A stretch of 64,000 nt of DNA from Candidatus Magasanikiibacteriota bacterium (lineage in GTDB: Bacteria; Patescibacteriota; Patescibacteriia; Magasanikbacterales; GWA2-37-8): positions 147,923 to 211,922 of the forward strand of contig JACOYB010000004.1 of the NCBI GenBank assembly GCA_016182085.1, in the 5' to 3' direction. A model generated the notes under the pieces. That model did no database searches. It saw only the letters and a program-made list of their open reading frames with translations, and was not told where the DNA came from. This document shows, in pieces, positions 2,068 through 23,445 of the stretch. Position numbers and translations under genes: made by a program. Numbering within the stretch: position 1 is the stretch's first letter; each line of letters starts with the position of its first letter.

Positions 2068-2096
2068 TTGACAAAATGATAAATTTATGGTAAGAA
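2068..2096 (+). promoter_or_regulatory. Host-type sigma70-like promoter upstream of high-GC cassette 1
   Basis: TTGACAAAA -35, 17-bp spacer, TAAGAAT -10-like. Followed by a roughly 110-nt mid-GC leader with hairpin GGCTCTCCggttGGAGAGCC and a GGGGAGG RBS 7 nt before the ATG at 2209. Confidence 0.4.
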
Positions 2097-2208
2097 TGTT
2101 CTCAGAAGGCTCTCCGGTTGGAGAGCTGCTTTGACATAAAACTGCGTCCAGGGGGTACTAACTTCCGGACGTTTGTTCACAAATTCACCCTTCACGGGGA
2201 GGTCTGTC

Positions 2209-4563
2209 ATGGGATTTAACGACTTTTTCGCTGATAGTGCGACTCGTAGTCACCAGGGCGGTTCCACCTCGGATACCGCCAAATCCGGATTCAGTCCGGC
2301 GCCGGGCAGGACAAGCCTTACGTCCGATCTTCCGGCGGCAACGCAGTGGGATCGGGAAGCGGAGCGAGCGATCGGCCGTGCAAATCGGCACTTGGATGAG
2401 TTGCCCGAATTGATTCGGGCGGCCAAGGACACCTTTGGAAATGTCCAGTTCCAAGAAGCCAAAGCGGCCATTGGCCAACTGGAGAACAAGCTCTCGCTCG
2501 CTCAAGATAACGCGGGCAGAGCCAAAGGGATTCTGGGTCATGGCAGTGTTGAGAATAAGGCGCTGCTGGAACAGCTGGATATGCTGGAGCAGCGGATTCA
2601 ATCCGCCAAAGAAGATGTGGCGCCGATTCTGGCACGGAAGCCGCCAGAGACCAAGAGTGTTCCATTCTCCCTTCCTGGGGTAGATGAGGAACCTGACGCG
2701 GTTGGTAAATGGGAGAAAGAGCAGACTGCTACCCAGGATTCCTGGGAGACCACGCAGACTGCGATCAATTCATTGCCACCCGATGAGCGAGAGCCCGTTG
2801 GGTACGAGCAGGAAAGCTGTCGGGTTCGAGGCCCGGTGGCCGACAATGCCTTTGAGGGGATCAAGCTATTCATCAAGGCTCGAGCCGAGGATGATATTGA
2901 TCACGCCTACGACATTACGTATCCTTCCTTCTTGGTCGGACCAGGCAAGGTTGGTCCGTACAAGCTGGATCCGGCGCTCAAAGGCGGAAAGGTAGTGTTC
3001 TTCCTGGCTCACCATTCGGAGCGAGGTTACCCCGAGTGGGTCATCGGCCCCGATAACGTGGAAGAGTTCAGGCAGAACATTGACGCGTACGTTGGTGCGG
3101 CTCGCACGGCGCTGCCAGGAAGCAAAAAAATTCCTGGCTCACAGGCCGATGGGGCCGACAAGTTTCCCCACGACCCCTCAATGCTTGAGCTTGAGGCGTT
3201 TGGCAAAGCGCCTTACCAGCAACAGCTGGGTGCAGGACAGAGCGAAGCCCCCTTCAACCAGCCGAAGGAACACTCCGGAATGTTCGGGGTGATGTGGGAT
3301 GGACTCACCGAAGGGATGGATGAAGCCAATGGCGGCAGTTCTGCTGTTGGCGCGCGTAATGCGCATATTCGTCTGACTGACTACGTGGAGAAGGCTCGGG
3401 AAATCGCCCGTCAACTAATGGCGGACGTAAACTCGGGAAAGATGCAGCATCTGGATGCTCGCGGCGCAGCCGTGGCCGGTCGCAACGATTTGATGCGAGG
3501 TGTGAGAGAGCGGATGTCACCATCCGCGCGCTATACCTCACAGAAGATCAAGGCAGACGATGGCATCTCCGAAGGCGCCATGGTCAAGAAGAAGGTGCCG
3601 GATCTCCTGAATGCGGCGCGAAAGGGCGGGGATGGTATGCGAGTTCTTGGTCAGGCAGGTAGTCCGGAAGATCTCCGCAAGTTCTTGGGAGAAGAATCCG
3701 AAGCCTGGTCCAAGTATCTCAAGGCTCTTGAGGCTGGCGAACCTAGCAAGTCCGTAACCTCAAAAGCTGTTCAGGAGATGAGTCAGCAGCCGTCGGTCAG
3801 CCGTGCCATCATCAATTCTGCTGGCAAGAACAACCAAACGGTAACCAGGCTTGTAAAGCTGGGTCGTGTGGCTGGTGCGGCAGGGGCCGCAGCCGGTGTT
3901 GTTGATATGGCTCAAACCATTTACAACGCCGAAGATGGAGAGCGACTCCACGTGGCTGCGGGTGAGCTCGGTGGATTTGTAGGTGGAATTATTGGCGCTG
4001 AACTTGGCGCCATGGCCGCAGTCTGGGTTGCGTCACTGATCATTTCTGGTCCGGCTGCGCCTGTCGTGCTGGTCGTGTCGCTTATCGGCGGCATGGTCGG
4101 CGGAGCGATTGGCGCGCAAGCTGGGCACGAAATGCCGAACATGGCAACTGCGGCGCTTGGCGAAGGCCTTAACGCGGTGGTTACTCCCGGATCCGGGCAA
4201 GCCGGTGGCTATGCTGGTATGCACCAGCGCAGCTCCCAGGCTGGCAAGGACAAGATGAACACCGCGGAACGGTTGCGTCAGATCCAGGACCAGCTCGATT
4301 CGGATATCAGGCAGGCTGAAACCGAAATCAAGAAGGCCAAGGATCGGGACGATCTTGACCGTTGGCAGTTGCAGCGGCTTAACCTGCTGAACTATCGCGA
4401 CCAGGTCGGCGGTATCTACCAGCTCCTGCGGGCTGGCAAGATCAACGAGACCCAGGTCTACGAACTGATGGGTGAAGAGGTCGTCAAACCCGAACCTCAG
4501 GAGTGCGCTCCTGAAGAAGAATCGGAAGGCGGGGCCAATGAAGTTTCTGAAGTTGAGCGGTAA
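2209..4563 (+). CDS. Hypothetical large protein on a high-GC island: coiled-coil N- and C-terminal regions plus a glycine-zipper transmembrane segment
   Basis: 784-aa ORF (ATG at 2209 after GGGGAGG; the ORF track extends upstream to a TTG at 2173). The locus is about 60% GC in a roughly 40% GC genome, with GC-rich third codon positions. Gly-zipper region AGAAGAAAGVV..GGFVGGIIGAELGAMAAVWVASLIISGPAAPVVLVVSLIGGMVGGAIGAQAG. Flanking coiled coils. No recognisable catalytic motif. Confidence 0.6.
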   Translation: MGFNDFFADSATRSHQGGSTSDTAKSGFSPAPGRTSLTSDLPAATQWDREAERAIGRANRHLDELPELIRAAKDTFGNVQFQEAKAAIGQLENKLSLAQDNAGRAKGILGHGSVENKALLEQLDMLEQRIQSAKEDVAPILARKPPETKSVPFSLPGVDEEPDAVGKWEKEQTATQDSWETTQTAINSLPPDEREPVGYEQESCRVRGPVADNAFEGIKLFIKARAEDDIDHAYDITYPSFLVGPGKVGPYKLDPALKGGKVVFFLAHHSERGYPEWVIGPDNVEEFRQNIDAYVGAARTALPGSKKIPGSQADGADKFPHDPSMLELEAFGKAPYQQQLGAGQSEAPFNQPKEHSGMFGVMWDGLTEGMDEANGGSSAVGARNAHIRLTDYVEKAREIARQLMADVNSGKMQHLDARGAAVAGRNDLMRGVRERMSPSARYTSQKIKADDGISEGAMVKKKVPDLLNAARKGGDGMRVLGQAGSPEDLRKFLGEESEAWSKYLKALEAGEPSKSVTSKAVQEMSQQPSVSRAIINSAGKNNQTVTRLVKLGRVAGAAGAAAGVVDMAQTIYNAEDGERLHVAAGELGGFVGGIIGAELGAMAAVWVASLIISGPAAPVVLVVSLIGGMVGGAIGAQAGHEMPNMATAALGEGLNAVVTPGSGQAGGYAGMHQRSSQAGKDKMNTAERLRQIQDQLDSDIRQAETEIKKAKDRDDLDRWQLQRLNLLNYRDQVGGIYQLLRAGKINETQVYELMGEEVVKPEPQECAPEEESEGGANEVSEVER

Positions 4564-4975
4564 TCGTACCCAGAATCGGGCGACCTTGTGGATGGTTGAC
4601 GTGGGATTGTTCCTGTTCGGAATGTTTGCCGCGTTTACCACGTATGTGTTAGTTCCCCAACTGAACCGCTCGTTGCCTGTGTGGACACTGGTATTCTTGC
4701 TGCCAGTGCTAACATTTACGGTACGAGTCCAGTTCGTCAAATCTGAGAACGGCGTAATTGCAAAATTCATCTACTTCTGGCTGTTTGTTCCGTATAGGTT
4801 CAGTAGTCAGGAAGTGGTGGATGTAGCGACAAGCTGTAGTTCAGATGATCTGGACAAAGAAGATGAGCTGGGGTTGATGAGGAGGGACGGAAACCACAAC
4901 TGGATTGAGTGCTACGGCGCAAATGCCGTGGCTCAGTGGATACGAAAATCCACCGGTTTGAACCTCGAACCGTAG
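4538..4975 (+). CDS. Hypothetical small membrane protein (2 predicted TM helices) on high-GC island 1
   Basis: ORF overlapping or abutting the 3' end of the large island gene. Possible starts are ATG 4538, GTG/ATG about 4592, or ATG 4472 in the track. Hydrophobic segments LFLFGMFAAFTTYVLV and LVFLLPVLTFTV. Same high GC as its neighbour. Confidence 0.4.
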   Translation: MKFLKLSGNRTQNRATLWMVDVGLFLFGMFAAFTTYVLVPQLNRSLPVWTLVFLLPVLTFTVRVQFVKSENGVIAKFIYFWLFVPYRFSSQEVVDVATSCSSDDLDKEDELGLMRRDGNHNWIECYGANAVAQWIRKSTGLNLEP

Positions 4976-5030
4976 TTGCAAGAGGAGGTCAGTCGTCTGG
5001 TCGGAGCAATCCGAACAGACGCGAAGTTTC

Positions 5031-5069
5031 AAAGCCGGCGGCTAGTATAGCGCCGGCTTTTGTATTTTT
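5031..5069 (+). terminator. Rho-independent terminator closing high-GC island 1
   Basis: AAAGCCGGCGgctagtatagCGCCGGCTTTTGTATTTTT. The sequence composition returns to AT-rich host DNA immediately after. Confidence 0.6.
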
Positions 5070-5079
5070 ATAGTTTGGA

Positions 5080-5108
5080 TTGACAAAGAGGTAGGTGTAG
5101 ATTATAAT
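5080..5108 (+). promoter_or_regulatory. Promoter for tRNA-Leu
   Basis: TTGACA (5080-5085), 17-bp spacer, TATAAT (5103-5108), about 20 nt upstream of the tRNA 5' end. Confidence 0.55.
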
Positions 5109-8765: not shown

Positions 8766-11231
8766 TTACATTAGTGTCACACTCGCCACTCTGTCGCCAT
8801 CCTCTTTAAATCGCATCAGGCGGACGCCTTGGGTGGCGCGGCCGGAAGAATTGATTGATCCAAATGGCAGGCGAATTACCTGGCCTTTGGCCGACATGAT
8901 AAGCAAGTCTTTTTCTTTAAATTCCACAGCATCCACCACTTTGGCAAATGTTAAGTTGCCGGTCTTGGCTGTGATTTCGGCGGTTTTGATACCGCTGCCG
9001 CCGCGTCCTTGTACTTTATATTCATCCAGTTCCGTGCGTTTGCCCACGCCATTTTCACCGACGGTTAAAAATGCCAGACTTTTATTTTTCGGATCAACGA
9101 TATCCATGCCAATCACTTCATCGTTGCTTTTTAGCCGCATGCCGCGCACACCGCTGGCCGTGCGTCCCATCTCACGAACATCTTTTTCTTTGAAGCGAAT
9201 GGCCTGGCCTTGTTTGGTGGCAATCATAATTTCGTCGCTGCCGGTGCTTGGTTTTACCCATTCCAAATTATCGTCTAGCTTTAATTTTATGGCGATGAGG
9301 CCGCTGCGGCGAACATTGGCAAAATCCTCCAGAGCGGTTTTTTTGATATTGCCTTTGGTGGTGGTCATGACCAAATATTTAATATTTGTCATATCTTTCA
9401 TTCCGAGCAGAGCCGTAACTTTTTCGTTCGGCGCGAGCTGTAAAAAGTTTATCAGCGCTTGGCCTTTGGCAGTGCGGCTGGCTTGGGGGATATCATAGGC
9501 CATAAGCTGGAAGACACGGCCACGGTTGGTGAAAAATAGTATATTGTCGTGGGTATTGGTGCTTACCAGATTTTCCACGCTTTCTTCTTCTTTGGTGGTT
9601 ACACCAATGACACCCTTGCCGCCGCGGGATTGTTGGTGGAAAGTGTCCGGAGGCAACCGTTTGATATAACCATCCGAAGTTACCATAATAATAGTAGCTT
9701 CGTTTGGAATTAAATCTTCGGTCGTAAATTCTTTAATGCCATGGGCAATAATTTGGGTGCGTCTTGGCTGGCCGTATTTTTCTTTTATAGCTAAAGTTTC
9801 ATCCTTAATTATTTTTAGTATTTTGGCTTTTGAAGCAAGGATAGATTCTAGTTCTTTTATAAGGGCTTTCTTTTCTTTTAATTCATCTTCAATTTTTTGT
9901 CGTTCCAAGTTGGCTAGCTGTTGGAGTTTCATTTCCAAAATAGCCACGGCTTGGCGGTCGCTGAATTTGAATTTGGACATTAAATTGCTTTTGGCTTCTT
10001 CTTTGTCTTTGGAAGAACGGATAGTTTTAATGATCAAATCAATTTTATCCAGAGCCATGCTTAAACCCTCCAAAATATGGGCGCGGTCTTTGGCTTTGGC
10101 CAAATCATATTCGGTGCGGCGGCGGATAATTACTTGTCGGTGTTTAAGGAATTCTTCCAAAACATTTTTAATATTTAAAACTCTAGGTTGAATGCCGTCA
10201 ATTAAGGCCAGCATGTTGTAGTGGAACGTAGTTTGCAATTCTGTCATTTGGAACAACTTGTTCAACACTTTTTTCGGGTATGCGTCTTTTTTTAAATCAA
10301 TAACTACGCGTACGCCATCTTTGTTGGATTCATCGCGTAAATCTTTAATGCCTTCAATTTTTTTCTCCTGCACCAGATCGGCAATTTTTTCCAAGAGAGT
10401 TGCTTTGTTAATGTTATAGGGAACTTCGGTAATAACAATTTTAAATTGATCGGCTTTGCCTTCTTGGATTTCAGCTTTGGCACGTATCACAACGCCGCCT
10501 TTACCGGTAGAGTAAGCGGTTAAAATATCTTTTTTATTATAAATAATACCGCCGGTAGGGAAGTCCGGGCCTTTTATAAGCTCAGCCAATTCTTCTACGG
10601 AAGTATCCGGATCATCCATAAGTTTAGCCAGGCCGTCGCAGAGTTCGCTTAGGTTATGTGGAGGAATAGAGGTGGCCATACCAACTGCAATACCCATAGT
10701 GCCATTGAGCAGAAGATGTGGCAGTTTGGCTGGAAGAACAGTTGGTTCGGTATGGGAGCCGTCGTAGTTAGGAATAAAATCAACCGTTTCTTTTTCTATA
10801 TCAAACAGCATCTCTTCGGCCACGGCCATTAGTTTGGCTTCGGTATAACGCATGGCAGCGGCATTATCGCCATCCATGGAACCAAAGTTACCCTGGCCGT
10901 GTACGAGCGGGTAGCGCATGGAAAAATCTTGAGCCATACGTACCATGGCGTCGTATATGGAAGCATCGCCGTGCGGATGGTATTTGGCCATCACTTCACC
11001 GACCACGTGGGCGGATTTGCGGAAACGAGCGGTGTGGCGCAATCCAATATCCCACATTGCGTACAGTACGCGGCGATGTACGGGTTTTAATCCGTCTCGC
11101 ACATCCGGAAGCGCACGGGCCACGATCACGCTCATCGCGTATTCCAAATACGAAGTTTGCATTTCTTCTACCAGAGATGCTGGGGTAATAAGTCCAAATT
11201 CTTGAGGGTTAAGTTCTAGTTTTTCTTGCAT
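8766..11231 (-). CDS. gyrA: DNA gyrase subunit A
   Basis: [28 protein letters not shown] active-site region. GyrA-box-like QSRGGKG. 821 aa. Confidence 0.95.
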
Positions 11232-12568: not shown

Positions 12569-15268
12569 ATGCAAAAAATGAAGAAAAGAGCACAGCAATT
12601 TGTCAGCGTCTTAGCGCTGGCTTCTTTGGTTTTTGGTTTAAGCGCAACGGCTTTGCCTCAGGCGGCTAAAGCCGCAGGTGAAGATTTTGCGGTCGGTTTT
12701 AATTATGAAAATAGTTATGGCACCGAAGGTCTTACCACCGACATAGAGTTAGTGGTGGCAGACAATAATCAGGCCGGCACACACGGAGAAATCACAGTTA
12801 CTTATCAAATAGATTTTTCAGGCAATTTATATTCAAATCCTATCACCCCGGCTTCTTCTGGAGATTTTACGGTTAATGGGTTTTATACTTCTAGTGGCAC
12901 CATAACTATTCCTGCAGATCAAAATTCTGTTTTCGTTCAAATTCAAAATGTTAATGATACGTTTGCGGAGCAAGAGGAGTCTTTTGTTATAACGATTCTG
13001 GATGCTCAAATCTCGGGAGGAGATACTGTTAGAGTTGCGAGAGCCGGCGGCGCTGCTGATATGCCATACCCTAGCCACATGCATTTTATTGTAGACAATG
13101 ATAATCCCGAATTAAGCGTTGCCGATTCTTCTCAGGGTGGCAACACCTTTGCGCTTGAGGACCAAGGACAGGGTACATTCAAAGTATTACTTTCTACCAT
13201 TTCCACAAGCGATATAACTTTTGATTGGTCAGTTCAAGATAACACGGCCACATATTTGGAAGACTATTCTATTGCCGGAGGCAGCGCGACTATTCCAGCC
13301 GGTGAAACTTCTACCACTCTTAGTATTGGCGTGCTTGATGATGATTTAAATGAAAATAATGAAGAAATAGTATCTATTATTCTTTCCAACCCAACTAATG
13401 CTGTTTTAGGATCTAACTACGCAAGAATATATTACATTATTGACAATGAAGATATTAAGGTTGGTTTTTCCACTAACTCTGGCTCTGGATTAGAAAATGT
13501 AGGCACAGTTCCGCTGACTATCAATCTTAATTTTGTAAGCAATAACGAAGTTACAGCCGATATATCTATTGAAGAACCCGGTAGCAGTCCTGCCAGCACT
13601 CCGAGTGATTTCGTTTTGGAAAATTCCAGCGTTGTATTTCCAGCCGGCACTACTTCTACGGTTGTTAATCTTATCATCGTAGATGATAATTTACAGGAAT
13701 CAGATGAATTTATCTGGCTTGTCATTAGAAACCAAACAAATGGCGGCGATATTATCGGAGTTGGTCCAAATTCTTCTTTTGGCTATACTATCCAAGACAA
13801 TGGTGATGTAAATAATACGCCAACCCTAAATCTTTCGGCTGCTACTGCTTCCGGAATGGAAAATGAGCCAGGAACGTTCACTGTATCTATGGACGCAGTT
13901 TCAACTGAAAATGTAACTTTCCAATGGAAAACAGATGGCGGCACCGCTTCTATAGTACCTACCACAGTTGGCACAACCGTATTCCCAGCTGACTATACTG
14001 GCTCGGCTACGTTTGCCACGGCCACAATTCCAGCCGGATCATTATCAACAACTATAAGTTTAAATGTTTCTGATGACAGCCTAGCTGAACAAGATGAAAC
14101 TTTTGAAATTACTATTGCCAGTGCCAGTGGCGCAACTATTGGCCCGGTAAATACTCAGACATACACAATCAATGAAAATGATTTTGTAAACGCGCAGTTT
14201 GAATCAGCCGCTTCTTCGGGATCTGAATCCACCGGTTCGGCAAATCTTAATATCGTTTTGTCTAATGTGAGCGATAGGGAAGTGAAAGTATATGTTGAAA
14301 ATACAGCTTCCAGCACGGCTACCTTTGGTACCGAATGGCAAATGGCCAGCGGTACTGTTGTCTTTGCCCCGGGTGAAACTTCCAAACCAATCGGTTTAAC
14401 TATTGTTGATGATGGCGATCAAGAATCTTCTGAAACTGCCGTGGTTGCTTTAACTGGCTCGAGTATCGGCGGCGTGTCGGGCATCTTAACTCATACTTAT
14501 ACTATTACTGATAACGATACTCCTTCTGGATCAGGCGGCGGCAGCGGAGGATCAGGCGGCGGAGGAGGCGGTGGATCTGGTATAGCTTTACCTACCACTC
14601 CAACCGGATCCGGTTTTGCTGGAGAGGCTCAGAGTGTGCGTGTGGAAAGCGTAACCACAGTTGGTGATACAAATTTTGCTAACTTGGTCTTAGCTGGCGG
14701 TACCGCGGTTCGTATGGCAATTTCTAACAGCCTTGGTTTTGAAAATGCTGTTTCGGAATCATATAAGACGAGCGCAATCTGGAAACTTTCTTCCGGCGCT
14801 GGTACAAAAACTGTGTATGTTAAATTCTTCAACAATGCCGGCTTTGCCTCTGCGATCGTAAGTACGACCGTAACAGTTGGCGGAAGTATTGGCGGTGGAG
14901 AAGTGCTCGGTGTACAAATCAGCTTACTTGATGAGTTGATTGCTAAGTTGAAAGCCGGCACAACTAGTGATGAAGTTAGACAATTACAAGTAGAATTGCA
15001 AAAGAAAGGTTACTTTACCAAGAATTTTAGACCTACCAGATTTTATGGCGCAATGACCAGAGCGGCTGTAGCCAGATATTTGGCTGATAAAATGACTGTA
15101 GATGAATTAGTTGCCGCCTTAAAATTGGGCAATCGCGGCGCTTTGGTAAGTAAATTGCAAACTGAACTTAAAAAATTAGGTTTCTTCCCGGCCAATATGG
15201 CGGCCACCGGTTACTTTGGTTTGGTAACCAAGGCTTCCGTAACCAAGTACCTAGCTTCCAAAAATTAA
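12569..15268 (+). CDS. Secreted Calx-beta-repeat surface protein with Gly/Ser linker and two C-terminal peptidoglycan-binding (PG_binding_1-like) domains
   Basis: Signal peptide. Repeated modules ending ...PAGETSTTLSIGVLDDDLNENNEEIVSIILSNPTNAVLG (Calx-beta signature). (GGS)n linker at about 14527-14580. C-terminal repeats LQVELQKKGYF...FYGAMTRAAVARYL. Confidence 0.75.
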   Translation: MQKMKKRAQQFVSVLALASLVFGLSATALPQAAKAAGEDFAVGFNYENSYGTEGLTTDIELVVADNNQAGTHGEITVTYQIDFSGNLYSNPITPASSGDFTVNGFYTSSGTITIPADQNSVFVQIQNVNDTFAEQEESFVITILDAQISGGDTVRVARAGGAADMPYPSHMHFIVDNDNPELSVADSSQGGNTFALEDQGQGTFKVLLSTISTSDITFDWSVQDNTATYLEDYSIAGGSATIPAGETSTTLSIGVLDDDLNENNEEIVSIILSNPTNAVLGSNYARIYYIIDNEDIKVGFSTNSGSGLENVGTVPLTINLNFVSNNEVTADISIEEPGSSPASTPSDFVLENSSVVFPAGTTSTVVNLIIVDDNLQESDEFIWLVIRNQTNGGDIIGVGPNSSFGYTIQDNGDVNNTPTLNLSAATASGMENEPGTFTVSMDAVSTENVTFQWKTDGGTASIVPTTVGTTVFPADYTGSATFATATIPAGSLSTTISLNVSDDSLAEQDETFEITIASASGATIGPVNTQTYTINENDFVNAQFESAASSGSESTGSANLNIVLSNVSDREVKVYVENTASSTATFGTEWQMASGTVVFAPGETSKPIGLTIVDDGDQESSETAVVALTGSSIGGVSGILTHTYTITDNDTPSGSGGGSGGSGGGGGGGSGIALPTTPTGSGFAGEAQSVRVESVTTVGDTNFANLVLAGGTAVRMAISNSLGFENAVSESYKTSAIWKLSSGAGTKTVYVKFFNNAGFASAIVSTTVTVGGSIGGGEVLGVQISLLDELIAKLKAGTTSDEVRQLQVELQKKGYFTKNFRPTRFYGAMTRAAVARYLADKMTVDELVAALKLGNRGALVSKLQTELKKLGFFPANMAATGYFGLVTKASVTKYLASKN

Positions 15269-15292
15269 ATTAAGTCTTAATATATTAATTAT

Positions 15293-16999
15293 ATGCAAGA
15301 CAACAAACTATCCGTAGGAAAAAAAGTCTTGGCGGCTGCTTTTTTGATGCTTGGTTTGGTAATTATGCCAAAACCCGCATCTGCCGCGGCAAACCAAGTT
15401 GATGTCTCTGTAAGTACAAATTCCGTTGCGGAAGGAAATGTGGTAACTTTTACATTTACCACGGCACGCGCCGCGGTAGGGAATATTGACATTAGTTATA
15501 ATTTAACCGGCGAGGCAAATGCTGCCAGTGATTATACGTTTAATAATTCTGCCAGCTTCAGCGGTGTTGTTAGAATTGATAATGGTAATTCAACTGCCGC
15601 AGTTACGCTTACGACCACTCAAGATGTGGCTGTAGAAAATGATGAGGGCATAGCTTTTACAGTTGCCGGTGTTGCTAATCTTGATGATCCGGAAGGCGCC
15701 AATTTTAACTCCGCTCACGCTACGACCAATCTTATAATTGTAGATGACGACAGCCAGTACAAACTATTTTTTACAGCTTCATCTTCTATCATGAACGAAA
15801 GTGAAGGCCCGATGTTTTTTACGGTTTCACTTTCTAACGCCGCGCCAACCGAGGTTACATTTTTATGGAACACATTTCTTAACTCCACGGTGAACTCTAC
15901 TACCGCTTCCGGCTATGCCGCTATGGACGGAGACTTTACCGGCGGTTCGGCAGATTATGTTTTAGTAACTATCCCTATTGGCCAAACTTCTGCTCCGATT
16001 ACGCTTAATGTTACCGAAGATACTCTAGACGAATTTAATGAGGTGGTACTTATGACTATCTCATCTCCAACTGGCGCAACACTCGGCTCTGTTACTCAAC
16101 GCACAGTTACGATTGAAGACAATGATACGACTTTGGTATCTTTCTCCCAAGCGACCTCTTCTGATAACGAAGGTGTAACTGCTCGCAAAGCACAACTTTC
16201 TTTATCTACGCTGAGCGACCATGATGTAACCGCTAGCATTGAGGCAGTTGCGGCACAAAGCACTGCTGAACTCGGAACTGATTGGCAAGTGCCTGTAACT
16301 GCCTGGGTTATTCCAGCTGGTCAATTGACTAAAGATGCGGAAGTAACGGTTATAGATGATTCAGCCGAAGAAGCAGACGAGACGGCTATGATTCGTATCG
16401 CTACAGTTGGTGACGGTGGTTTAGGGGTAAGTACAACCCATGCTTTTATTATTACTGCTAACGATACTCCAACTCCGGCAAGTGGCGGCGCGTATGGCAC
16501 AGCTATTCCTCAAAGCACTGCTTCCGTGGGTGGCGTACCGGCTGGTTCGGTAGTGGTTGCTCCTCCAGATACAGTTCCTCCGGCAATTGAGATTCCGACT
16601 GTTCCAGCTCCGACCACTCCTTCCGGAGAAGTCTTGGGTGTACAGGTATCTTTGGTAGATGAATTAATTGTTAAGTTAAACCCGGGCCAGGTTAGTGATG
16701 AAGTAAGAATATTGCAAACTGAACTTCAAAAACTCGGATTTTTCCGCGCGACATTTAAGCCAACCAGATATTATGGCCCTATGACCAGAGCCGCCGTAAA
16801 TGGGTATTTGGACGGCCGCGCCGATGCTATGACCTTGGATGAACTAGTGGCCATATTAAAATTTGGTCACAGAAATAATGCCGTGAAAAAATTACAAAAC
16901 CAACTTAAGATATTATTTTTCTTTCCGGCCACGGTAAGATCTACCGGTTACTTTGGCGTAATTACCAAAGCATCCGTAGCTAAATACAAGAATAGATAA
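15293..16999 (+). CDS. Secreted Calx-beta-repeat protein with two C-terminal peptidoglycan-binding domains (paralog of 12569-15268)
   Basis: Signal peptide. Calx-beta-like modules (IPIGQTSAPITLNVTEDTLDEFNEVVLMTISSPTGATLG). C-terminal ILQTELQKLGFF...YYGPMTRAAVNGYL repeats. Confidence 0.75.
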   Translation: MQDNKLSVGKKVLAAAFLMLGLVIMPKPASAAANQVDVSVSTNSVAEGNVVTFTFTTARAAVGNIDISYNLTGEANAASDYTFNNSASFSGVVRIDNGNSTAAVTLTTTQDVAVENDEGIAFTVAGVANLDDPEGANFNSAHATTNLIIVDDDSQYKLFFTASSSIMNESEGPMFFTVSLSNAAPTEVTFLWNTFLNSTVNSTTASGYAAMDGDFTGGSADYVLVTIPIGQTSAPITLNVTEDTLDEFNEVVLMTISSPTGATLGSVTQRTVTIEDNDTTLVSFSQATSSDNEGVTARKAQLSLSTLSDHDVTASIEAVAAQSTAELGTDWQVPVTAWVIPAGQLTKDAEVTVIDDSAEEADETAMIRIATVGDGGLGVSTTHAFIITANDTPTPASGGAYGTAIPQSTASVGGVPAGSVVVAPPDTVPPAIEIPTVPAPTTPSGEVLGVQVSLVDELIVKLNPGQVSDEVRILQTELQKLGFFRATFKPTRYYGPMTRAAVNGYLDGRADAMTLDELVAILKFGHRNNAVKKLQNQLKILFFFPATVRSTGYFGVITKASVAKYKNR

Positions 17000-17106: not shown

Positions 17107-18081
17107 ATGGACTTTGGAAACATGAAAAAAGTATTCAAAAAATATTTTATTCCGCACCACGAGAATAATTTTCACCCGCATATTCTGCATACCAAGCGCG
17201 CGGTTTTTTATGGCCTGGTATTTTTACTAACCAAAGGCATCATGGTAGCTTTTGTACTACTGCTTCCAATTGGAGCGTTTGTGCTTCCCGATGTTTTGGC
17301 CGAGGAACAAAGGCAGATTGTGGCCCTAACAAACAAAGTCCGCCAGGAAAAAAATTTACCTGCTTTAGTTGTTTCCGAAAAGCTGGGTGTATCGGCGCAA
17401 AATAAAGCGGACGATATGGCGCAAAAGAGCTATTTTGCTCATGTAAACGACCAAAAAAGCCTCTCTACCTGGCTTAAAGGCGCGGGGTATTCATACGAAG
17501 TAGCCGGAGAAAATTTGGCCGTAGGGTTTAGCACGGCTGAACAAATTATTACAGCCTGGAAAAATAGCCCAACTCATTATGATAATTTAGTGGATTCTGA
17601 TTTTAAGGATTTAGGCATAGGACTCGCTGGCGGAGAGTACAAAGGCAGAGCTGTAATCTTTATCGCTCAGCACTTAGCTTTGCCAATAGCGGTTGCAAAA
17701 ATAGAGAAACCCGTTGTTAAAAAAGAAGCAGTTAAAAAGTCTCCGGTGACTGGAACAAAGGCGGCAGTTTCTTCTCAAAAGAATAACCCGGCCAGCTCAT
17801 CGGTTTTGTCCGGCAGAATTAAAAATTCAGATGAAACAGAGCTTGCCGTAATAAATACAGATCAGCCAACGCCGGTGGAAAAATATATACAAGCCAAGCA
17901 GGTATTATCTCCGCTCACCAATATATTTAGCGTTTCTCAAACTATTTATTTCTGGGCCATGATATTTTTTGGTTCAGCTCTGCTGCTGAGCGTACTTATC
18001 AATATGCGCAGACAGCGCGGCCATATAGTTGCTCAAACTGCCGGCCTGCTAACTTTACTATTTGTTTTTTGGAAATTTTAA
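17107..18081 (+). CDS. CAP/SCP/PR1-like (YkwD-like) domain protein with N- and C-terminal TM helices
   Basis: CAP-domain motifs (NKVRQEKNLPAL, SYFAHVN, ITAWKNSPTHYDNLV). Hydrophobic N-terminal and C-terminal segments. Confidence 0.7.
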   Translation: MDFGNMKKVFKKYFIPHHENNFHPHILHTKRAVFYGLVFLLTKGIMVAFVLLLPIGAFVLPDVLAEEQRQIVALTNKVRQEKNLPALVVSEKLGVSAQNKADDMAQKSYFAHVNDQKSLSTWLKGAGYSYEVAGENLAVGFSTAEQIITAWKNSPTHYDNLVDSDFKDLGIGLAGGEYKGRAVIFIAQHLALPIAVAKIEKPVVKKEAVKKSPVTGTKAAVSSQKNNPASSSVLSGRIKNSDETELAVINTDQPTPVEKYIQAKQVLSPLTNIFSVSQTIYFWAMIFFGSALLLSVLINMRRQRGHIVAQTAGLLTLLFVFWKF

Positions 18082-20598: not shown

Positions 20599-20724
20599 TT
20601 CTTTTGCGCCTCGTTCGGTATTGACCTAACAAGTTAATCTGGGCGAGGCGTTTTGTTTAAATTGACAGTTCGTATTTATGGTCGTATTATATACGATATT
20701 ATCTTTTATAATTTAAACATATAT

Positions 20725-23445
20725 ATGTCGCACAAAAATTTTAGTAGAAATTTCAAAATAAAAAAGATAGTTATTTTTGTAGTTATCGCAATGGTAGGAA
20801 TATTAGTATGTCAGAGTGCTAAAGCAGCGGATATTAAAGCTTCAGAAGTTTTGGGTCAGATTAACCCAGCCACTAATCAACCCGATTTTACTCAGCGTAA
20901 TATAAATAGTCACGTGGTAAATAATTATGGTTTTAACCACGAGGAAGTAGTGATGGTAGATACAGGGCTCCATCGTTTATTTGTAGCCGATGCTAATAAT
21001 AACCGAGTTTTGGTTTTTAATCTTAATAATAATGATGAGCTTGTTGATTATTATGCGGATAATGTTTTAGGGCAATCAAATTTTATAAATTTTCTTTCAA
21101 ATCAGGGTGGTGCGCCAGGAGCCGCAACCATGCGTTTTCCCTCAGGTCTTGCTTATAACAATCTCAACAATACTTTGTATGTGTCTGATACTTATAACAA
21201 TCGTGTTTTGGTTTTTGATGTCAGTACTATTACCAACGGCGAACCGGCCGTTGCAGTTTTGGGACAATCTACATTTGCAAATGTAAGTGCCAATCAGAGT
21301 GGCGCTGTTTCTGCCCAAACTCTTTTTAATCCTACAAGCCTTGTGCATAACAGCATAGATAATATTTTATATGTTTCTGATTTAGCTAATTCTCGTGTTC
21401 TAGCCTATGATGTAAATACTATCGTAAATGGCGAAGCGGCCGTTGCAGTCTTAGGCCAGCCTAATTTTATAAGTAATACGTTCACGGGAGTATCACCTAC
21501 GTCTGTATTTCAGCCTAGAGGCCTGGCCTTTAACAATACCAATAAATGGTTATATTTGGCTGACAGTTACAATAATCGCGTCCTAGCCTATGATGTAAAT
21601 ACTATCGTAAATGGCGAAGCGGCCGTTGCGGTCTTAGGCCAGCCTAACTTGATGAGTGCTGTTGCTAACTATCCCAATAATATTCCCGCTGCTAACAATC
21701 TTTCTTTGCCGAGGGGGGTCGCTTTTGATAAGGGGAGTATGAAATTATATGTTTCTGATTCAGCTAATTCTCGTGTTCTAGCCTATGATGTAAATACTAT
21801 CGTAAATGGCGAAGCGGCTGTGGCGGTCTTAGGCCAGCCTAATTTTATCAGTAATAGTGCCAATCAAGGTGGTATGTTAGCGGGAGCTACAACTGTTAAT
21901 TATCCAATGGGGCTTGCTCTTAACAGTTACAAAAAATTATTTGTAGCTGATACCAATAACAACAGGGTTTTGGTTTTTGATGTCAGTGTTATTGTTAATG
22001 GCGAAGCCGCGGCTTCAGTTTTAGGCCAGCTTGATAATAGCAGTCAGCCGAATTTCAACCAGAACAGAATTAATAGTCATTTAATCAACGATTATGGTTT
22101 TGACAAGCCAAAAGAAATGGCCATAGATATAAAATTACACCGTTTATTTGTAGCCGATACTAATAACAACCGTGTTTTGGTTTTTAACCTTAATAATAAT
22201 GATGAGCTTATTGATTATAATGCGGATAGTGTTTTAGGCCAGCCCGATTTTACAAGCAACTTACCAAATCAAGGAGGTAACACAGGGCCTGGAACTCTTA
22301 ATCATCCGTCCGGTCTTGCCTTTAACATAAGTAGAAATTTACTATATGTGGCAGACACGAATAATCATCGCGTTTTAGTTTACGATGTTACTACCATTGT
22401 TAATGGACAATCAGCGGTCAGTGTTTTGGGTCAACCTGATTTTATAAGCTCTCTTAAGAATAATTGTAACTGTACTATTCCGACTGCGAACTCTCTTAAT
22501 GCACCCGGCAACATTGTATACAGTAAAAATAATAACATTTTATATGTAGGAGACGGTGGTAATGCGCGCGTGCTTGCTTATAATGTTACGACTATCGTCA
22601 ATGGAGAATCAGCTCTTTCAGTGTTGGGTAAGCCGGATTTTGTTACTCCTTTCGTTAATAACCCCCCGACAGCAGAAAATCTTAATCAGTTTTTAGACAT
22701 GGGCGGTTTAGCCTATGACGATGATAACAAAATTCTATATGTTTCTGACTCGCGCAAGCATCGTGTCTTAGCTTACGATGTAAACACTATCGTAAATGGC
22801 GAAGCAGCCGTTGCGGTCTTAGGACAATTTAACTTTTTAAGCGGTAACTCAAACCAAGGAGGTTTTTGGCCAGGGCCAGGAACTCTTCATTCCCCCGTAG
22901 GTCTTGTATATGATAAGGATAATAAAAGTTTGTTCGTAACGGATCAAGGTAATAATCGCGTTCTGTTGTTCGACGTAGCTACCATTGTTAATGGCGAAGC
23001 GGCAGCTGCGGTTTTAGGTCAGCTTAATTTTGTCAGTAATTATCCAAATCAAGGCAGTTTTTTACCAGGACAAAAGACCCTTTGGGTCCCATCTGCTGTC
23101 ACGTACAACGGTGTCAATAACACTGTATATATATCAGATTTAGAAAATAATCGTGTTATGCTGTTTAAGCTTATTGATATTATTACCGTAGAGATGCCTA
23201 ATGGCACAGTGGGCAATTCATATAACCAGACGGTAGTGGCTCAAAATGGCCAAAGTAACAACGTAAGATATTCTGTTAGCGCCGGATCTTTGGCTAACGG
23301 CCTTACATTGAACAGTGTAACAGGGTTGATCTCTGGTACGCCCACTGTAGCCGGTACTTTCTTATTTACTATTAAAGCTTCGGATAATTTTGCGGATACC
23401 AGTGTGATCTCTGATCGCCGTCAGTTTAAGCATACGATTTTCTAG
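20725..23445 (+). CDS. Large secreted NHL-repeat (beta-propeller) protein with a C-terminal putative Ig-like domain
   Basis: Signal/TM at the N-terminus (ATG 20725; the track start 20653 is probably an upstream extension). At least 12 NHL-type repeats (LYVSD..NNRVLVFDV...NGEAAVAVLGQPNF). C-terminal LTLNSVTGLISGTPTVAGTFLFTIKASDN (dystroglycan/He_PIG-like Ig). TTGACA/TATTAT promoter at about 20664-20698. Confidence 0.75.
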   Translation: MSHKNFSRNFKIKKIVIFVVIAMVGILVCQSAKAADIKASEVLGQINPATNQPDFTQRNINSHVVNNYGFNHEEVVMVDTGLHRLFVADANNNRVLVFNLNNNDELVDYYADNVLGQSNFINFLSNQGGAPGAATMRFPSGLAYNNLNNTLYVSDTYNNRVLVFDVSTITNGEPAVAVLGQSTFANVSANQSGAVSAQTLFNPTSLVHNSIDNILYVSDLANSRVLAYDVNTIVNGEAAVAVLGQPNFISNTFTGVSPTSVFQPRGLAFNNTNKWLYLADSYNNRVLAYDVNTIVNGEAAVAVLGQPNLMSAVANYPNNIPAANNLSLPRGVAFDKGSMKLYVSDSANSRVLAYDVNTIVNGEAAVAVLGQPNFISNSANQGGMLAGATTVNYPMGLALNSYKKLFVADTNNNRVLVFDVSVIVNGEAAASVLGQLDNSSQPNFNQNRINSHLINDYGFDKPKEMAIDIKLHRLFVADTNNNRVLVFNLNNNDELIDYNADSVLGQPDFTSNLPNQGGNTGPGTLNHPSGLAFNISRNLLYVADTNNHRVLVYDVTTIVNGQSAVSVLGQPDFISSLKNNCNCTIPTANSLNAPGNIVYSKNNNILYVGDGGNARVLAYNVTTIVNGESALSVLGKPDFVTPFVNNPPTAENLNQFLDMGGLAYDDDNKILYVSDSRKHRVLAYDVNTIVNGEAAVAVLGQFNFLSGNSNQGGFWPGPGTLHSPVGLVYDKDNKSLFVTDQGNNRVLLFDVATIVNGEAAAAVLGQLNFVSNYPNQGSFLPGQKTLWVPSAVTYNGVNNTVYISDLENNRVMLFKLIDIITVEMPNGTVGNSYNQTVVAQNGQSNNVRYSVSAGSLANGLTLNSVTGLISGTPTVAGTFLFTIKASDNFADTSVISDRRQFKHTIF

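What the first reader, a model, noticed from the sequence alone, without database searches (positions are those of the whole stretch)
2209..5069. High-GC island next to tRNA-Leu encoding a glycine-zipper, coiled-coil 784-aa protein plus a small 2-TM protein: candidate membrane-inserting toxin or effector with immunity partner
- **Large protein.** It has long coiled-coil stretches and a central region with no known motif. A striking GxxxG/AxxxG glycine-zipper hydrophobic block (AGAAGAAAGVV...GGFVGGIIGAELGAMAAVWVASLIISGPAAPVVLVVSLIGGMVGGAIGAQAG) is followed by another coiled coil.
- **Small partner.** The 3' end overlaps or abuts a small ORF with two TM helices.
- **Flanks.** The island ends with a terminator 60 bp before the promoter of tRNA-Leu(CAA). 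tRNA genes are classic landmarks for integrated foreign DNA.
- **Interpretation.** Glycine-zipper segments occur in pore-forming toxins and channel-forming membrane proteins. This is inference, with no homology established.
Basis: inference. Interest (0 to 1): 0.65.

Follow-up and report, generated by a model that had tools for sequence, protein, structure and literature searches.

The report
Foreign membrane-toxin and immunity gene pair
A small-genome (CPR, Magasanikbacteria) bacterium carries a horizontally acquired two-gene cassette: a large protein built around a membrane-inserting toxin module that other bacteria mount on RHS and contractile-injection cargo proteins, and a small membrane partner that probably protects the producer.

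Summary
A 57.6% GC, about 3 kb island (about 2098-5069) sits in a 42% GC Candidatus Magasanikbacteria genome. It lies between asnS and tRNA-Leu(CAA) and encodes a 784-aa protein (2209-4563) and an overlapping 145-aa two-TM protein (4538-4975).

Residues about 375-650 form a roughly 270-aa module of a helical bundle plus a Gly-zipper hairpin. In other bacteria this module is the C-terminal payload after RHS cores and a PT-HINT domain. 25 of 84 distant homologs also carry the eCIS_core (DUF4157) domain. One homolog lies in an eCIS effector region.

The small partner family follows the large gene in 12 of 13 distinct loci, across CPR and high-GC (Myxococcota-like) genomes. Both genes are under purifying selection.

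There are no Pfam, NCBIfam, PADLOC or PDB relatives. The island shows no integrase and no att repeats, and the window holds no delivery apparatus, so the tRNA-integration idea is not supported.

Pore formation, immunity and the export route are inferred. Verdict: an uncurated new member of the polymorphic toxin-immunity kind, acquired by a CPR lineage from high-GC bacteria.

The parts
2068..2097 (+). AT-rich sigma-70-type promoter of the cassette (TTGACA-18-AAGAAT)
   Evidence: The consensus scan matches 10 of 12 positions. The block is conserved upstream of the large gene in L001, L002 and L015.
2098..2208 (+). Structured 5' leader. It contains a conserved hairpin at 2108-2127 (GGCTCTCC-GGTT-GGAGAGCT) and a second hairpin at 2139-2177. 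The GGGGAGG Shine-Dalgarno sequence lies at about 2196-2202.
   Evidence: RNA folding gives -43 kcal/mol, z = -2.85. The stem is kept in L001 (one G-U change) and in L015 (T-A to C-G double change).
2209..4563 (+). 784-aa effector-like protein (GenBank HYT15_01040, annotated 'hypothetical protein')
   Evidence: The ORF is, and P0001 is 100% identical. The family has 127 hits at E <= 1e-3 and 36 at E <= 1e-30. dN/dS is 0.08-0.16. The AF2 model has mean pLDDT 76.7.
2209..2337 (+). Disordered hydrophilic N-terminal leader (aa 1-43) with a conserved P-A-P-G-[KR]-x-S-L-T-x-x-L-P motif (aa 30-43). It is a candidate export or loading signal.
   Evidence: pLDDT is below 50 for aa 1-42. The motif occurs in 16 of 125 family N-termini against 0.86 expected from shuffles. 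Kyte-Doolittle sum is -38.9 over the first 50 aa, with 3 aromatic residues in the first 8. There is no Sec-type hydrophobic segment.
2335..2790 (+). Variable helical / coiled-coil spacer (aa 43-194)
   Evidence: AF2 helices span 43-141 and 164-194 at pLDDT above 90. This is the least conserved region of the family alignment.
2821..3231 (+). Conserved alpha/beta central domain (aa about 205-341; motifs GPGxxGPYxL, ERxQxEWVIGPD, LPGS..DGAD). It is specific to the subfamily.
   Evidence: Alignments A5 and A6 show invariant E276-D282 in 12 sequences. AF2 places strands at 251-279. No Pfam or PDB match was found.
3331..4158 (+). About 270-aa toxin module (aa 375-650): a helical bundle followed by a Gly-zipper transmembrane hairpin
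   Evidence: An HMM of this stretch covers its full length in about 80 of 128 homologs, usually at their extreme C-terminus. The module follows the RHS core end in P0085, P0093, P0110, P0122 and P0128. 25 of 84 distant homologs that carry the module also have an eCIS_core domain.
3865..4128 (+). Gly/Ala-zipper hydrophobic block (aa 553-640). It is the most conserved part of the protein.
   Evidence: G592 and G635 are invariant; H581, F590, G593, G596, S609 and G631 are nearly invariant in 37 sequences. Hydrophobic segments cover 587-639. AF2 confidence is low here, as expected for a monomer model of a membrane oligomer.
4210..4560 (+). C-terminal helical hairpin / coiled coil (aa 668-753) and an acidic Cys-containing tail (aa 754-784)
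   Evidence: AF2 helices span 668-741 at pLDDT above 90. The region is conserved in the subfamily, and relatives carry a 'C..DDDCD' tail.
4538..4975 (+). 145-aa partner: a split PH-like beta-sandwich with an inserted two-TM hairpin. It is the candidate immunity protein and is probably translationally coupled (26-nt overlap).
   Evidence: Alignments A2, A7 and A8. A CPR-only HMM finds partners in high-GC loci: L009 4e-18, L011 7e-8, L010 5e-7. dN/dS is 0.18-0.23. The AF2 model has pLDDT 71.8. The best PDB match is EROS/CYBC1 8kei_D at E = 1.2e-3, followed by PH domains.
4984..5069 (+). Two 3' hairpins. The second (5031-5060) is followed by a U-run and is read as the intrinsic terminator of the cassette.
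   Evidence: RNA folding gives -40 kcal/mol, z = -4.73.

Best explanation
This is a horizontally acquired, two-gene effector-immunity cassette of the polymorphic-toxin type.

**Large protein.** It is made in the cytoplasm without a Sec signal. It consists of:
- a disordered N-terminal leader with a PG[KR]xxLT motif
- a coiled-coil spacer
- a conserved central domain
- a roughly 270-aa membrane-active toxin module (helical bundle plus Gly-zipper hairpin)
- a C-terminal coiled coil

**Proposed action (inferred).** After export or release, the Gly-zipper helices insert into a target cell's cytoplasmic membrane. They oligomerise through the GxxxG/AxxxG faces into an ion-conducting pore and dissipate the membrane potential.

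**Small partner (inferred).** It is co-translated and membrane-anchored, with a split PH-like fold. It binds or blocks the toxin's hydrophobic hairpin in the producer's membrane and so prevents self-intoxication.

**Origin.** The Magasanikbacteria lineage obtained the cassette from high-GC bacteria (Myxococcota-like). It expresses it from a native AT-rich promoter.

**What is shown**
- Gene reality and family membership of the module.
- Fusion of the module to known toxin-delivery scaffolds.
- Partner co-occurrence and cross-phylum homology.
- Foreign composition and purifying selection.

**What is inferred**
- Pore formation.
- The immunity role of the partner.
- The target and the export route.
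For: **The module is a toxin payload**
- An HMM of aa 375-650 matches end to end in about 80 of 128 homologs, mostly at their extreme C-terminus.
- In at least five RHS proteins it is the only sequence after the '...YYHGARYY...DPxGL' core end.
- Among 84 distant homologs that carry the module, Pfam finds eCIS_core/DUF4157 in 25, and also RHS_repeat and PT-HINT.
- Homolog P0033 lies among three other eCIS_core genes and a baseplate/tail-fibre-network gene.
- The literature describes eCIS toxins as a disordered NTD, an optional DUF4157 and a C-terminal effector (PMC8213781; bioRxiv 10.64898/2026.05.27.728243).

**The partner is cognate**
- A small gene overlapping or abutting the stop codon is present in 12 of 13 distinct loci.
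- A CPR-only HMM recovers partners from 63-71% GC genomes.
- Locus L018 carries an array of three partner-like genes.

**Membrane activity is plausible**
- The Gly-zipper hairpin is the best-conserved part of the protein.
- Gly-zipper toxins with membrane-protein immunity are established for T6SS, T7SS and CDI systems (PMC9637101, PMC12744356, PMC10434224, PMC11630599).

**Functional genes**
- dN/dS is 0.08-0.16 for the large gene and 0.18-0.23 for the small gene.

**HGT**
- GC3 is 0.61-0.68 in the pair against 0.28-0.46 in the flanks, in four CPR genomes.
- Relatives sit in 63-71% GC genomes at host GC.
- Two cassette types (43% identity) occur at one locus in genomes whose flanks are equally similar.
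- A high-GC organism's P0004/P0005 nests among the CPR sequences in the tree.
Against: - There is no experimental or structural evidence of toxicity or pore formation for any member of this family.
- No similarity to Tse5, colicins or any solved structure was detected.
- No recognised delivery domain is present in the window protein. No CIS, T6SS or T7SS genes occur in the 64-kb window. I found no literature on contractile injection systems encoded by Patescibacteria.
- In this subfamily the module is not at the extreme C-terminus. About 130 aa of coiled coil follow it.
- The one homolog inside an eCIS effector region lacks the small partner.
- Most loci are orphan pairs in housekeeping or regulatory neighbourhoods. 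That also fits a self-directed function.
- The AF2 model is unreliable exactly in the zipper (pLDDT below 50).
Confidence: 0.6

Rival explanations
1. The pair is a self-directed membrane-permeabilising module, acting in abortive infection, programmed lysis or holin-like release. The large protein stays in the producer. On a trigger such as phage infection or stress it inserts its Gly-zipper hairpin into the producer's own membrane. The small partner is an inhibitor or antiholin-like regulator, not immunity against incoming toxin.
For: - Most loci are orphan pairs with no delivery system within 10 kb.
- Some neighbours are defence- or TA-like: BrxL and Uma2 in L009, and DUF4411 with an HTH-Peptidase_M78 gene in L011 and L023.
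- There is no Sec signal.
- Related depolarising toxins (Tse5-CT, CDI ionophores, EsxX) are toxic from the cytoplasm (PMC11630599).
Against: - PADLOC finds nothing.
- The same module is the payload of RHS, PT-HINT and eCIS_core proteins, which are exported weapons.
- The conserved disordered N-terminal leader and motif look like an export or loading signal.
- The CPR cassette sits among core genes, not in a defence island.
Confidence: 0.15
2. The protein is a true eCIS (contractile injection) cargo. The Magasanikbacteria genome, or a partner organism, encodes a phage-tail-like particle elsewhere. The N-terminal leader directs loading into the tube, and the small partner only guards the producer before loading.
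For: - 25 of 84 distant homologs carry eCIS_core.
- Full-length relatives P0010, P0013, P0016, P0020 and P0033-35 have DUF4157 between the same leader and the same central domain.
- P0033 lies in an eCIS effector region.
- The leader fits the published eCIS signal traits: hydrophilic first 50 aa, aromatic residues in the first 8, and disorder.
Against: - No CIS gene lies in the 64-kb window or within 10 kb in 12 other loci.
- The window protein has no DUF4157.
- No published contractile injection system encoded by Patescibacteria was found.
- The module also rides on RHS proteins, so it is not eCIS-specific.
Confidence: 0.12
3. The pair is a housekeeping or structural envelope protein of the CPR cell, for example a membrane scaffold linked to chromosome partition or division because it neighbours parAB. 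The high GC would then only reflect its Gly/Ala/Pro/Arg-rich composition.
For: - The position between asnS and tRNA-Leu/parAB is conserved in all four related genome types.
- Both genes are under purifying selection.
- The promoter is native and AT-rich.
Against: - GC3, which is independent of amino-acid composition, is also 0.61-0.68.
- In the 5.8-billion-protein word-index search only three clusters matched, all from this narrow CPR clade.
- All other relatives found sit in entirely different contexts in high-GC bacteria.
- The large protein evolves several times faster than its flanks: dN 0.17-0.58 against 0.04-0.10.
- The module is fused to RHS and eCIS_core scaffolds.
Confidence: 0.05

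Closest known systems
Rhs-encapsulated pore-forming toxin Tse5-CT with its immunity protein Tsi5 (Pseudomonas aeruginosa H1-T6SS)
   Same: - Distant relatives of the window protein carry the module directly after an RHS core, as Tse5-CT does.
- Both have hydrophobic Gly-rich helices and a predicted membrane-depolarising action.
- In both, a small protective gene is encoded next to the toxin gene.
   Different: - No sequence or fold similarity was detected. PDB profile searches at E <= 10 returned only unrelated proteins, none named Tse5 or colicin, although I did not confirm that a Tse5 chain including its C-terminal toxin region is in the library.
- The window protein has no RHS cage or PAAR domain.
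- The module is about 270 aa and includes a helical-bundle part.
- The host has no known T6SS.
eCIS-associated toxins (EATs / Cgo-type cargo: disordered NTD, optional DUF4157, C-terminal effector)
   Same: - The domain order matches: disordered hydrophilic leader, optional DUF4157 in relatives, then the effector.
- 25 of 84 distant homologs carry eCIS_core.
- One homolog lies in an eCIS effector region.
   Different: - The window protein lacks DUF4157 and lies far from any CIS gene.
- It has a cognate membrane partner, whereas many EATs have no immunity gene (PMC8213781).
- No membrane-inserting EAT of this family appears in the papers read.
T7SS LXG Gly-zipper membrane-depolarising toxins (TelE, EsxX, TspA, LXG-T2), which are encoded with immunity proteins
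   Same: - Both have a long helical N-terminal part followed by a Gly-zipper membrane toxin.
- Both are encoded with a dedicated immunity gene.
- Their producers, like CPR bacteria, have a single membrane.
   Different: - No LXG or WXG domain and no T7SS genes were found.
- There is no sequence similarity.
- In this family a coiled coil follows the zipper.
CDI ionophore toxins (CdiA-CT) with polymorphic CdiI immunity proteins
   Same: - Both are helical toxins with a putative Gly zipper.
- In both, toxin-immunity pairs diverge quickly. Partners share only 20-45% identity within the CPR clade, comparable to about 30% for CdiI.
   Different: - There is no CdiA, FHA or pretoxin (VENN) region.
- There is no homology.
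- The partner here is a split PH-like fold with a TM hairpin.
EROS/CYBC1 and bacterial PH (bPH) domain membrane proteins (comparison for the small partner only)
   Same: - The model shows a PH-like beta-sandwich interrupted by a two-TM hairpin, with a C-terminal helix.
- The best PDB match is 8kei_D at E = 1.2e-3, probability 1.00, followed by PH domains.
   Different: - The match is borderline (TM-score about 0.49) and rests on a pLDDT 72 model.
- There is no sequence similarity and no Pfam bPH hit.
- EROS is a eukaryotic chaperone, so this is a resemblance in fold only.

Membership tests
Polymorphic toxin system (toxin module shared among different delivery scaffolds, plus adjacent immunity gene) | The same toxin module occurs as the terminal domain on several unrelated trafficking or delivery N-terminal architectures | tested here: met
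   The module (aa 375-650) is found after RHS cores and PT-HINT, behind PG_binding_1, in proteins that also carry eCIS_core/DUF4157, and as a stand-alone small protein.
Polymorphic toxin system (toxin module shared among different delivery scaffolds, plus adjacent immunity gene) | A small cognate gene lies immediately downstream, is co-oriented and is usually overlapping | tested here: met
   It is present in 12 of 13 distinct loci. Partner homology across phyla reaches E = 4e-18 to 6.5e-4 with a CPR-only HMM.
Polymorphic toxin system (toxin module shared among different delivery scaffolds, plus adjacent immunity gene) | A recognised secretion or delivery domain is present in the protein itself (RHS, LXG, PAAR, CdiA/FHA, MafB, DUF4157 and similar) | tested here: not met
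   Pfam, NCBIfam and PADLOC give no significant hit for the window protein. Only an uncurated N-terminal motif is present.
Polymorphic toxin system (toxin module shared among different delivery scaffolds, plus adjacent immunity gene) | Toxicity of the module, neutralised specifically by the partner | not testable with these tools
   This needs expression and rescue assays.
eCIS cargo / eCIS-associated toxin | The gene is encoded in or next to a contractile-injection operon (sheath, tube, baseplate, AAA+ loader) | tested here: not met
   No such genes occur in the 64-kb window. The feature is met only for homolog P0033 in L005. The rest of the 410-kb contig could not be read.
eCIS cargo / eCIS-associated toxin | A DUF4157/eCIS_core domain is present in the protein or in a neighbouring gene | tested here: not met
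   It is absent from the window protein and its neighbours. It is present in 25 of 84 distant homologs and in full-length relatives P0010, P0013, P0016, P0020 and P0033-35.
eCIS cargo / eCIS-associated toxin | A disordered, hydrophilic N-terminal leader of about 50 aa | tested here: met
   pLDDT is below 50 for aa 1-42. Kyte-Doolittle sum is -38.9, with 3 aromatic residues in the first 8. The criteria come from PMC11297309.
Gly-zipper pore-forming / depolarising toxins (Tse5-CT, EsxX, TelE, colicin-type) | Sequence or fold homology to a characterised member | tested here: not met
   Foldseek against PDB gives no hit at E < 1e-3. PDB profile searches find none. The Pfam RTX N-terminal hit is at E = 0.09, and the NCBIfam T6SS effector BTH_I2691 hit is at E = 0.21; both are below threshold.
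Gly-zipper pore-forming / depolarising toxins (Tse5-CT, EsxX, TelE, colicin-type) | Conserved GxxxG/AxxxG repeats within predicted transmembrane helices | tested here: met
   aa 587-639 are hydrophobic. G592 and G635 are invariant and G593, G596 and G631 are nearly invariant.
tRNA-integrated genomic island | An integrase or recombinase, and direct repeats derived from the tRNA 3' end | tested here: not met
   No integrase ORF was found. No tRNA-derived repeats were found. The island lies 5' of the tRNA promoter.
tRNA-integrated genomic island | Composition deviates from the host genome | tested here: met
   GC is 0.576 against 0.42, and GC3 is 0.61 against 0.32-0.46.
tRNA-integrated genomic island | Presence or absence varies among close relatives | tested here: inconclusive
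   All four related genome types seen carry a cassette at this site, but in two very different versions, and type B has an extra gene. No empty site was found.

The most novel reading that the evidence does not exclude
A CPR (Patescibacteria) episymbiont has captured a Myxococcota-type membrane toxin cassette. It deploys it, without any known injection machinery, against the membrane of its bacterial host or of competitors. The conserved N-terminal PG[KR]xxLT leader and central 'EWVIGPD' domain would then mark a so far unrecognised, self-contained export or translocation route. The cassette would be repeatedly replaced at one fixed chromosomal site by recombination with high-GC donors.
Probability: 0.15. 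Interest if true: 0.8.

Novelty: new member of a known kind. Interest (0 to 1): 0.55.

Why it matters
If the inference holds, four things follow.
- It defines an uncurated membrane-toxin domain family of about 270 aa. The family has no Pfam, NCBIfam or PDB entry and is shared by RHS proteins, eCIS_core/DUF4157 proteins and stand-alone effectors.
- It defines a new type of candidate immunity protein: a PH-like fold split by a TM hairpin.
- It shows that a reduced-genome CPR lineage keeps such a weapon under purifying selection, although no delivery apparatus is known in that group.
- It gives an entry point to how CPR bacteria antagonise or exploit other cells, and to how DUF4157-less cargo with a conserved leader motif is exported.

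Practically, the module and its partner are a compact toxin-antidote pair that can be tested directly in E. coli.

Tried and rejected
**Searches that found nothing significant**
- Pfam, NCBIfam, PADLOC and PHROGs on both proteins gave nothing significant.
- The weak hits were RTX N-terminal at E = 0.09 and T6SS effector BTH_I2691 at E = 0.21, both below threshold, and PHROG 'tail associated lysin' at E = 2.5e-5 over the Gly/Ala-rich stretch. I judged that last hit compositional rather than evidence of homology.
- tblastn against phage and plasmid collections found no match. A prophage or tape-measure origin and a plasmid origin are therefore not supported.
- Foldseek against PDB for the large model returned only generic helical bundles.
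- Rfam on the whole window found only the tRNA.

**Searches that failed technically**
- The word-index protein search with the family alignment was swamped by low-complexity words and returned only the three CPR proteins.
- The first attempt at search for related loci with 37 sequences failed because no conserved stretch was available. A 12-sequence subset worked but gave few loci.

**Hypotheses tested and rejected**
- 'DUF4157 replaces the small partner' is rejected. L020, L018 and L021 carry a DUF4157 domain (in L021 only a partial HExxH motif read from the alignment, with no Pfam hit on record) together with a partner.
- Integration at the tRNA is rejected: no repeats and no integrase.
- Direct profile comparison of the CPR partners with the Kofleriaceae-type partner gave no similarity. 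These form a second partner type (L004, L006, L018_95, L018_240).

Full report
**1. What is there**

The window comes from a Candidatus Magasanikbacteria (CPR/Patescibacteria) MAG. The 784-aa product is 100% identical to GenBank 'MAG: hypothetical protein HYT15_01040' on a 410-kb contig.

The gene order is recO, asnS, then the island, then tRNA-Leu(CAA), parA, parB, relA/spoT and gyrA.

- The large ORF runs 2209-4563 (ATG) with a GGGGAGG Shine-Dalgarno sequence.
- The small ORF's real start is ATG 4538, giving 145 aa and a 26-nt overlap.
- GenBank annotates only a 98-aa version of the small ORF (P0134). That version would remove a conserved N-terminal motif and the first TM helix.
- GC is 0.576 and 0.491 for the two genes, with GC3 0.61 and 0.62. 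Neighbouring genes have GC 0.37-0.46 and GC3 0.32-0.46.
- An AT-rich promoter (2068-2097) and a structured leader precede the large gene.
- Two hairpins follow the small gene. The second carries a U-run (5031-5069, z = -4.7).
- The tRNA's own perfect promoter follows at 5080-5108.

**2. The pair in related CPR genomes**

The same two genes sit at the same syntenic site in three further genome types:
- L001/L002: 74% identity.
- L003: 41% identity.
- L015-L017: 91% identical to L003.

All keep high GC3 (GC profile of L015).

Both genes are under purifying selection. dN/dS is 0.08-0.16 for the large gene and 0.18-0.23 for the small gene. They nevertheless evolve much faster than their neighbours.

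Flanking proteins of the window are about as similar to those of L003/L015 as to those of L001:

| Protein | to L001 | to L003/L015 |
|---|---|---|
| AsnRS | 85% | 88% |
| GyrA | 93% | 92% |
| RelA | 84% | 88% |
| Large protein | 75% | 43% |
| Small protein | 45% | 25% |

Two cassette types therefore occupy one locus. Type B (L015) also has an extra high-GC 287-aa gene with a C-terminal TM anchor upstream.

The AT-rich promoter block and a leader hairpin are conserved in front of the large gene in both types. The hairpin shows one compensatory double change.

There is no integrase and no repeat of the tRNA 3' end.

**3. The wider family**

An exhaustive phmmer scan of 1.84 billion representatives gave 127 hits at E <= 1e-3 and 36 at E <= 1e-30.

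The alignment of the 37 best hits defines the subfamily architecture:
- a disordered N-terminus with a PG[KR]xxLT motif, present in 16 of 125 N-termini against 0.86 expected
- an optional DUF4157 domain
- a variable coiled coil
- a conserved central domain (GPGxxGPYxL ... ERxQxEWVIGPD ... LPGS..DGAD)
- a helical region
- the Gly-zipper block, which is the best-conserved part
- a 'GGYAG..ER' stretch and a C-terminal coiled coil
- often a 'C..DDDCD' tail

An HMM of residues 375-650 matches end to end in about 80 of the 128 proteins, usually at their extreme C-terminus.

- In P0085, P0093, P0110, P0122 and P0128 this module follows directly after the RHS core end (...YYHGARYY...DPxGL).
- Among 84 distant homologs that carry the module, Pfam finds eCIS_core (ex-DUF4157) in 25. 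It also finds RHS_repeat, PT-HINT/Hint and PG_binding_1.
- Short stand-alone versions of 141-173 aa also exist.

This is the signature of a polymorphic-toxin payload domain. None of Pfam, NCBIfam, PADLOC or PDB knows it.

**4. Genomic contexts elsewhere**

- **L005/L007 (Thioalkalispiraceae MAG).** The homolog carries its own DUF4157. It lies among three further eCIS_core genes and a baseplate-wedge/tail-fibre-network gene, which is an eCIS effector region. This fits the published description of eCIS cargo: disordered NTD loading sequence, optional DUF4157 and a variable C-terminal effector.
- **All other loci.** These are orphan pairs in 63-71% GC genomes, with the pair at host GC:
  - Kofleriaceae L004, between infB/rbfA and cytochrome/beta-propeller genes.
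  - Soil contigs L006/L008.
  - L009, near BrxL, a deaminase and Uma2.
  - L010, after nucleotide-metabolism genes.
  - L011, L020 and L023, after an FHA/AAA_lid_14 regulator and a 90-aa gene; in L011 and L023 a TPR gene and a Ser/Thr kinase-PEGA gene also lie in between.
  - L013, L018 and L021.
- No tRNA is nearby in any non-CPR locus.

An NJ tree of the conserved region gives (P0003, ((P0001, P0002), (P0004, P0005))). Here P0004 comes from a 68.5% GC contig and the source of P0005 was not determined. The CPR sequences are therefore not monophyletic.

Together with the composition, this points to acquisition from high-GC bacteria. It may also indicate repeated cassette replacement at the CPR site.

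**5. The small partner**

A small gene overlaps or abuts the stop codon of the large gene in 12 of 13 distinct loci.

An HMM built from the four CPR partners alone finds the partners of several high-GC loci, with Z set to 1e6:

| Locus | E-value |
|---|---|
| L009 | 4e-18 |
| L011 | 7e-8 |
| L010 | 5e-7 |
| L013 | 3e-4 |
| L018 (131-aa gene) | 6.5e-4 |

- Shared features are an 'RATLWxVD' N-terminal strand, two TM helices, a basic 'TRVR' stretch, and an acidic 'SSDDLDxxDEL' loop.
- A second partner type occurs in L004 and L006 and in two genes of L018. It also has TM helices followed by a PH-like part.
- L018 carries three partner-like genes in a row.
- The AF2 model of the window partner (pLDDT 71.8) is a beta-sandwich with a C-terminal helix, interrupted by the TM hairpin.
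- Its best PDB match is EROS/CYBC1, a PH domain split by two TM helices (8kei_D, E = 1.2e-3). Ordinary PH domains follow.

**6. Structure of the large protein**

The AF2 model (pLDDT 76.7) shows:
- disorder at 1-42
- confident helices at 43-194
- a small alpha/beta domain at 205-341
- a helical bundle at 358-572
- a low-confidence zipper at 579-666
- a confident helical hairpin at 668-753

Foldseek against PDB returned nothing better than E = 0.28.

**7. Mechanism**

The best-supported reading (confidence about 0.6) is an effector-immunity pair.

- The module inserts into a target membrane through its Gly-zipper helices and forms an ion-conducting oligomer. This is the mechanism established or proposed for Tse5-CT, EsxX, TelE and CDI ionophores.
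- The membrane-anchored partner blocks it in the producer.
- Because the module is the sole post-core payload of RHS proteins, it is the toxic entity itself and not merely a translocation aid.
- Pore formation, immunity, the target and the export route are all inferred.

Rivals:
- A self-directed lysis or abortive-infection module (0.15).
- A genuine eCIS cargo whose machine lies elsewhere in the genome (0.12).
- A housekeeping envelope protein (0.05).

The window itself contains no injection machinery. It is otherwise housekeeping: UvrABC, FtsH, a PilB-type ATPase, RecG, ClpB, PheST and DnaE. I found no literature on contractile injection systems encoded by Patescibacteria.

**8. Comparison and novelty**

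- The cassette works like known Gly-zipper toxin-immunity pairs.
- It meets the two structural criteria of polymorphic toxin systems: a shared payload on different scaffolds, and an adjacent cognate gene.
- It fails membership tests for every named family: no RHS, LXG, CdiA or DUF4157 in the window protein, no homology to Tse5 or colicins, and no eCIS nearby.
- It also fails the test for a tRNA-integrated island.

I classify it as a new, uncurated member of a known kind.

Unexplained points:
- GC3 stays high although synonymous divergence is near saturation.
- Two cassette types share one locus.
- The single eCIS-embedded homolog lacks a partner.
- The role of the conserved leader motif and central domain is unknown.

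Noticed in passing
window 4538-4975 (GenBank HYT15_01045): The public annotation calls the small gene as 98 aa, starting at GTG/V48. The conserved N-terminal 'RATLWxVD' motif and first TM helix in homologs indicate that the 145-aa form from ATG 4538 is correct.
   Followed up: yes
window 2098-2208; L001 about 9870-10000; L015 about 4480-4584: A leader hairpin (GGCTCTCC-GGTT-GGAGAGCT at 2108-2127) is conserved downstream of a conserved AT-rich promoter. In L015 it shows a compensatory T-A to C-G change. The whole leader folds better than shuffles (z = -2.85). It is a possible regulatory RNA element and has no Rfam match.
   Followed up: partly
L015 3460-4323 (also L016 3406-4269): The type-B CPR cassette has a third high-GC gene upstream of the large gene. 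Its 287-aa product has a C-terminal TM anchor, no Pfam or PHROG hit, and its own similar promoter. The gene is absent from the window.
   Followed up: partly
window 2209-4975 versus L001, L003, L015: GC3 of the pair stays at 0.57-0.68 in four CPR genomes, although synonymous divergence between them is near saturation. Two cassette types (43% identity) occupy the same site in genomes with equally similar flanks. This suggests repeated cassette replacement.
   Followed up: partly
family members P0011, P0013, P0015-P0018, P0022, P0023, P0029; L006 about 1600-1637: A C-terminal tail 'C-x-[DN]-D-D-C-D-x-x-[VFW]' is conserved in about ten subfamily members. The window protein keeps only 'QEC' plus an acidic tail (aa 764-784). 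Its function is unknown; a metal site or a C-terminal signal are possibilities.
   Followed up: no
L011 5630-9800; L023 2503-6779; L020 1253-2836: In Myxococcota-like loci the pair is preceded by a conserved set: an FHA/AAA_lid_14 regulator and a 90-aa gene, with a TPR gene and a Ser/Thr kinase with a PEGA domain also present in L011 and L023. This hints at phosphorylation-dependent control.
   Followed up: no
L018 3852-5250: Three consecutive partner-like genes (240, 95 and 131 aa) follow one DUF4157-bearing homolog. They include both partner types. This resembles the immunity-gene arrays of polymorphic toxin loci.
   Followed up: partly
window 12569-16999 and 20653-23445: Large secreted or surface-type proteins lie downstream of gyrA. 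Two have Calx-beta plus PG_binding_1 domains (899 and 568 aa). One 930-aa protein has NHL repeats and a He_PIG Ig domain, and there is also a CAP-family protein (17107-18081). They are probable cell-surface proteins of the CPR cell.
   Followed up: no
window 37457-39187: A PilB-type T2SSE/type IV pilus ATPase is the only secretion-related gene recognised in the window.
   Followed up: no
window 2209-4563, aa 452-714: There is a weak PHROG match to a 1251-position 'tail associated lysin' profile (E = 2.5e-5) and to two long profiles of unknown function, over the Gly/Ala-rich hydrophobic stretch. It is probably compositional, but it recalls the hydrophobic segments of phage tape-measure proteins.
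   Followed up: no
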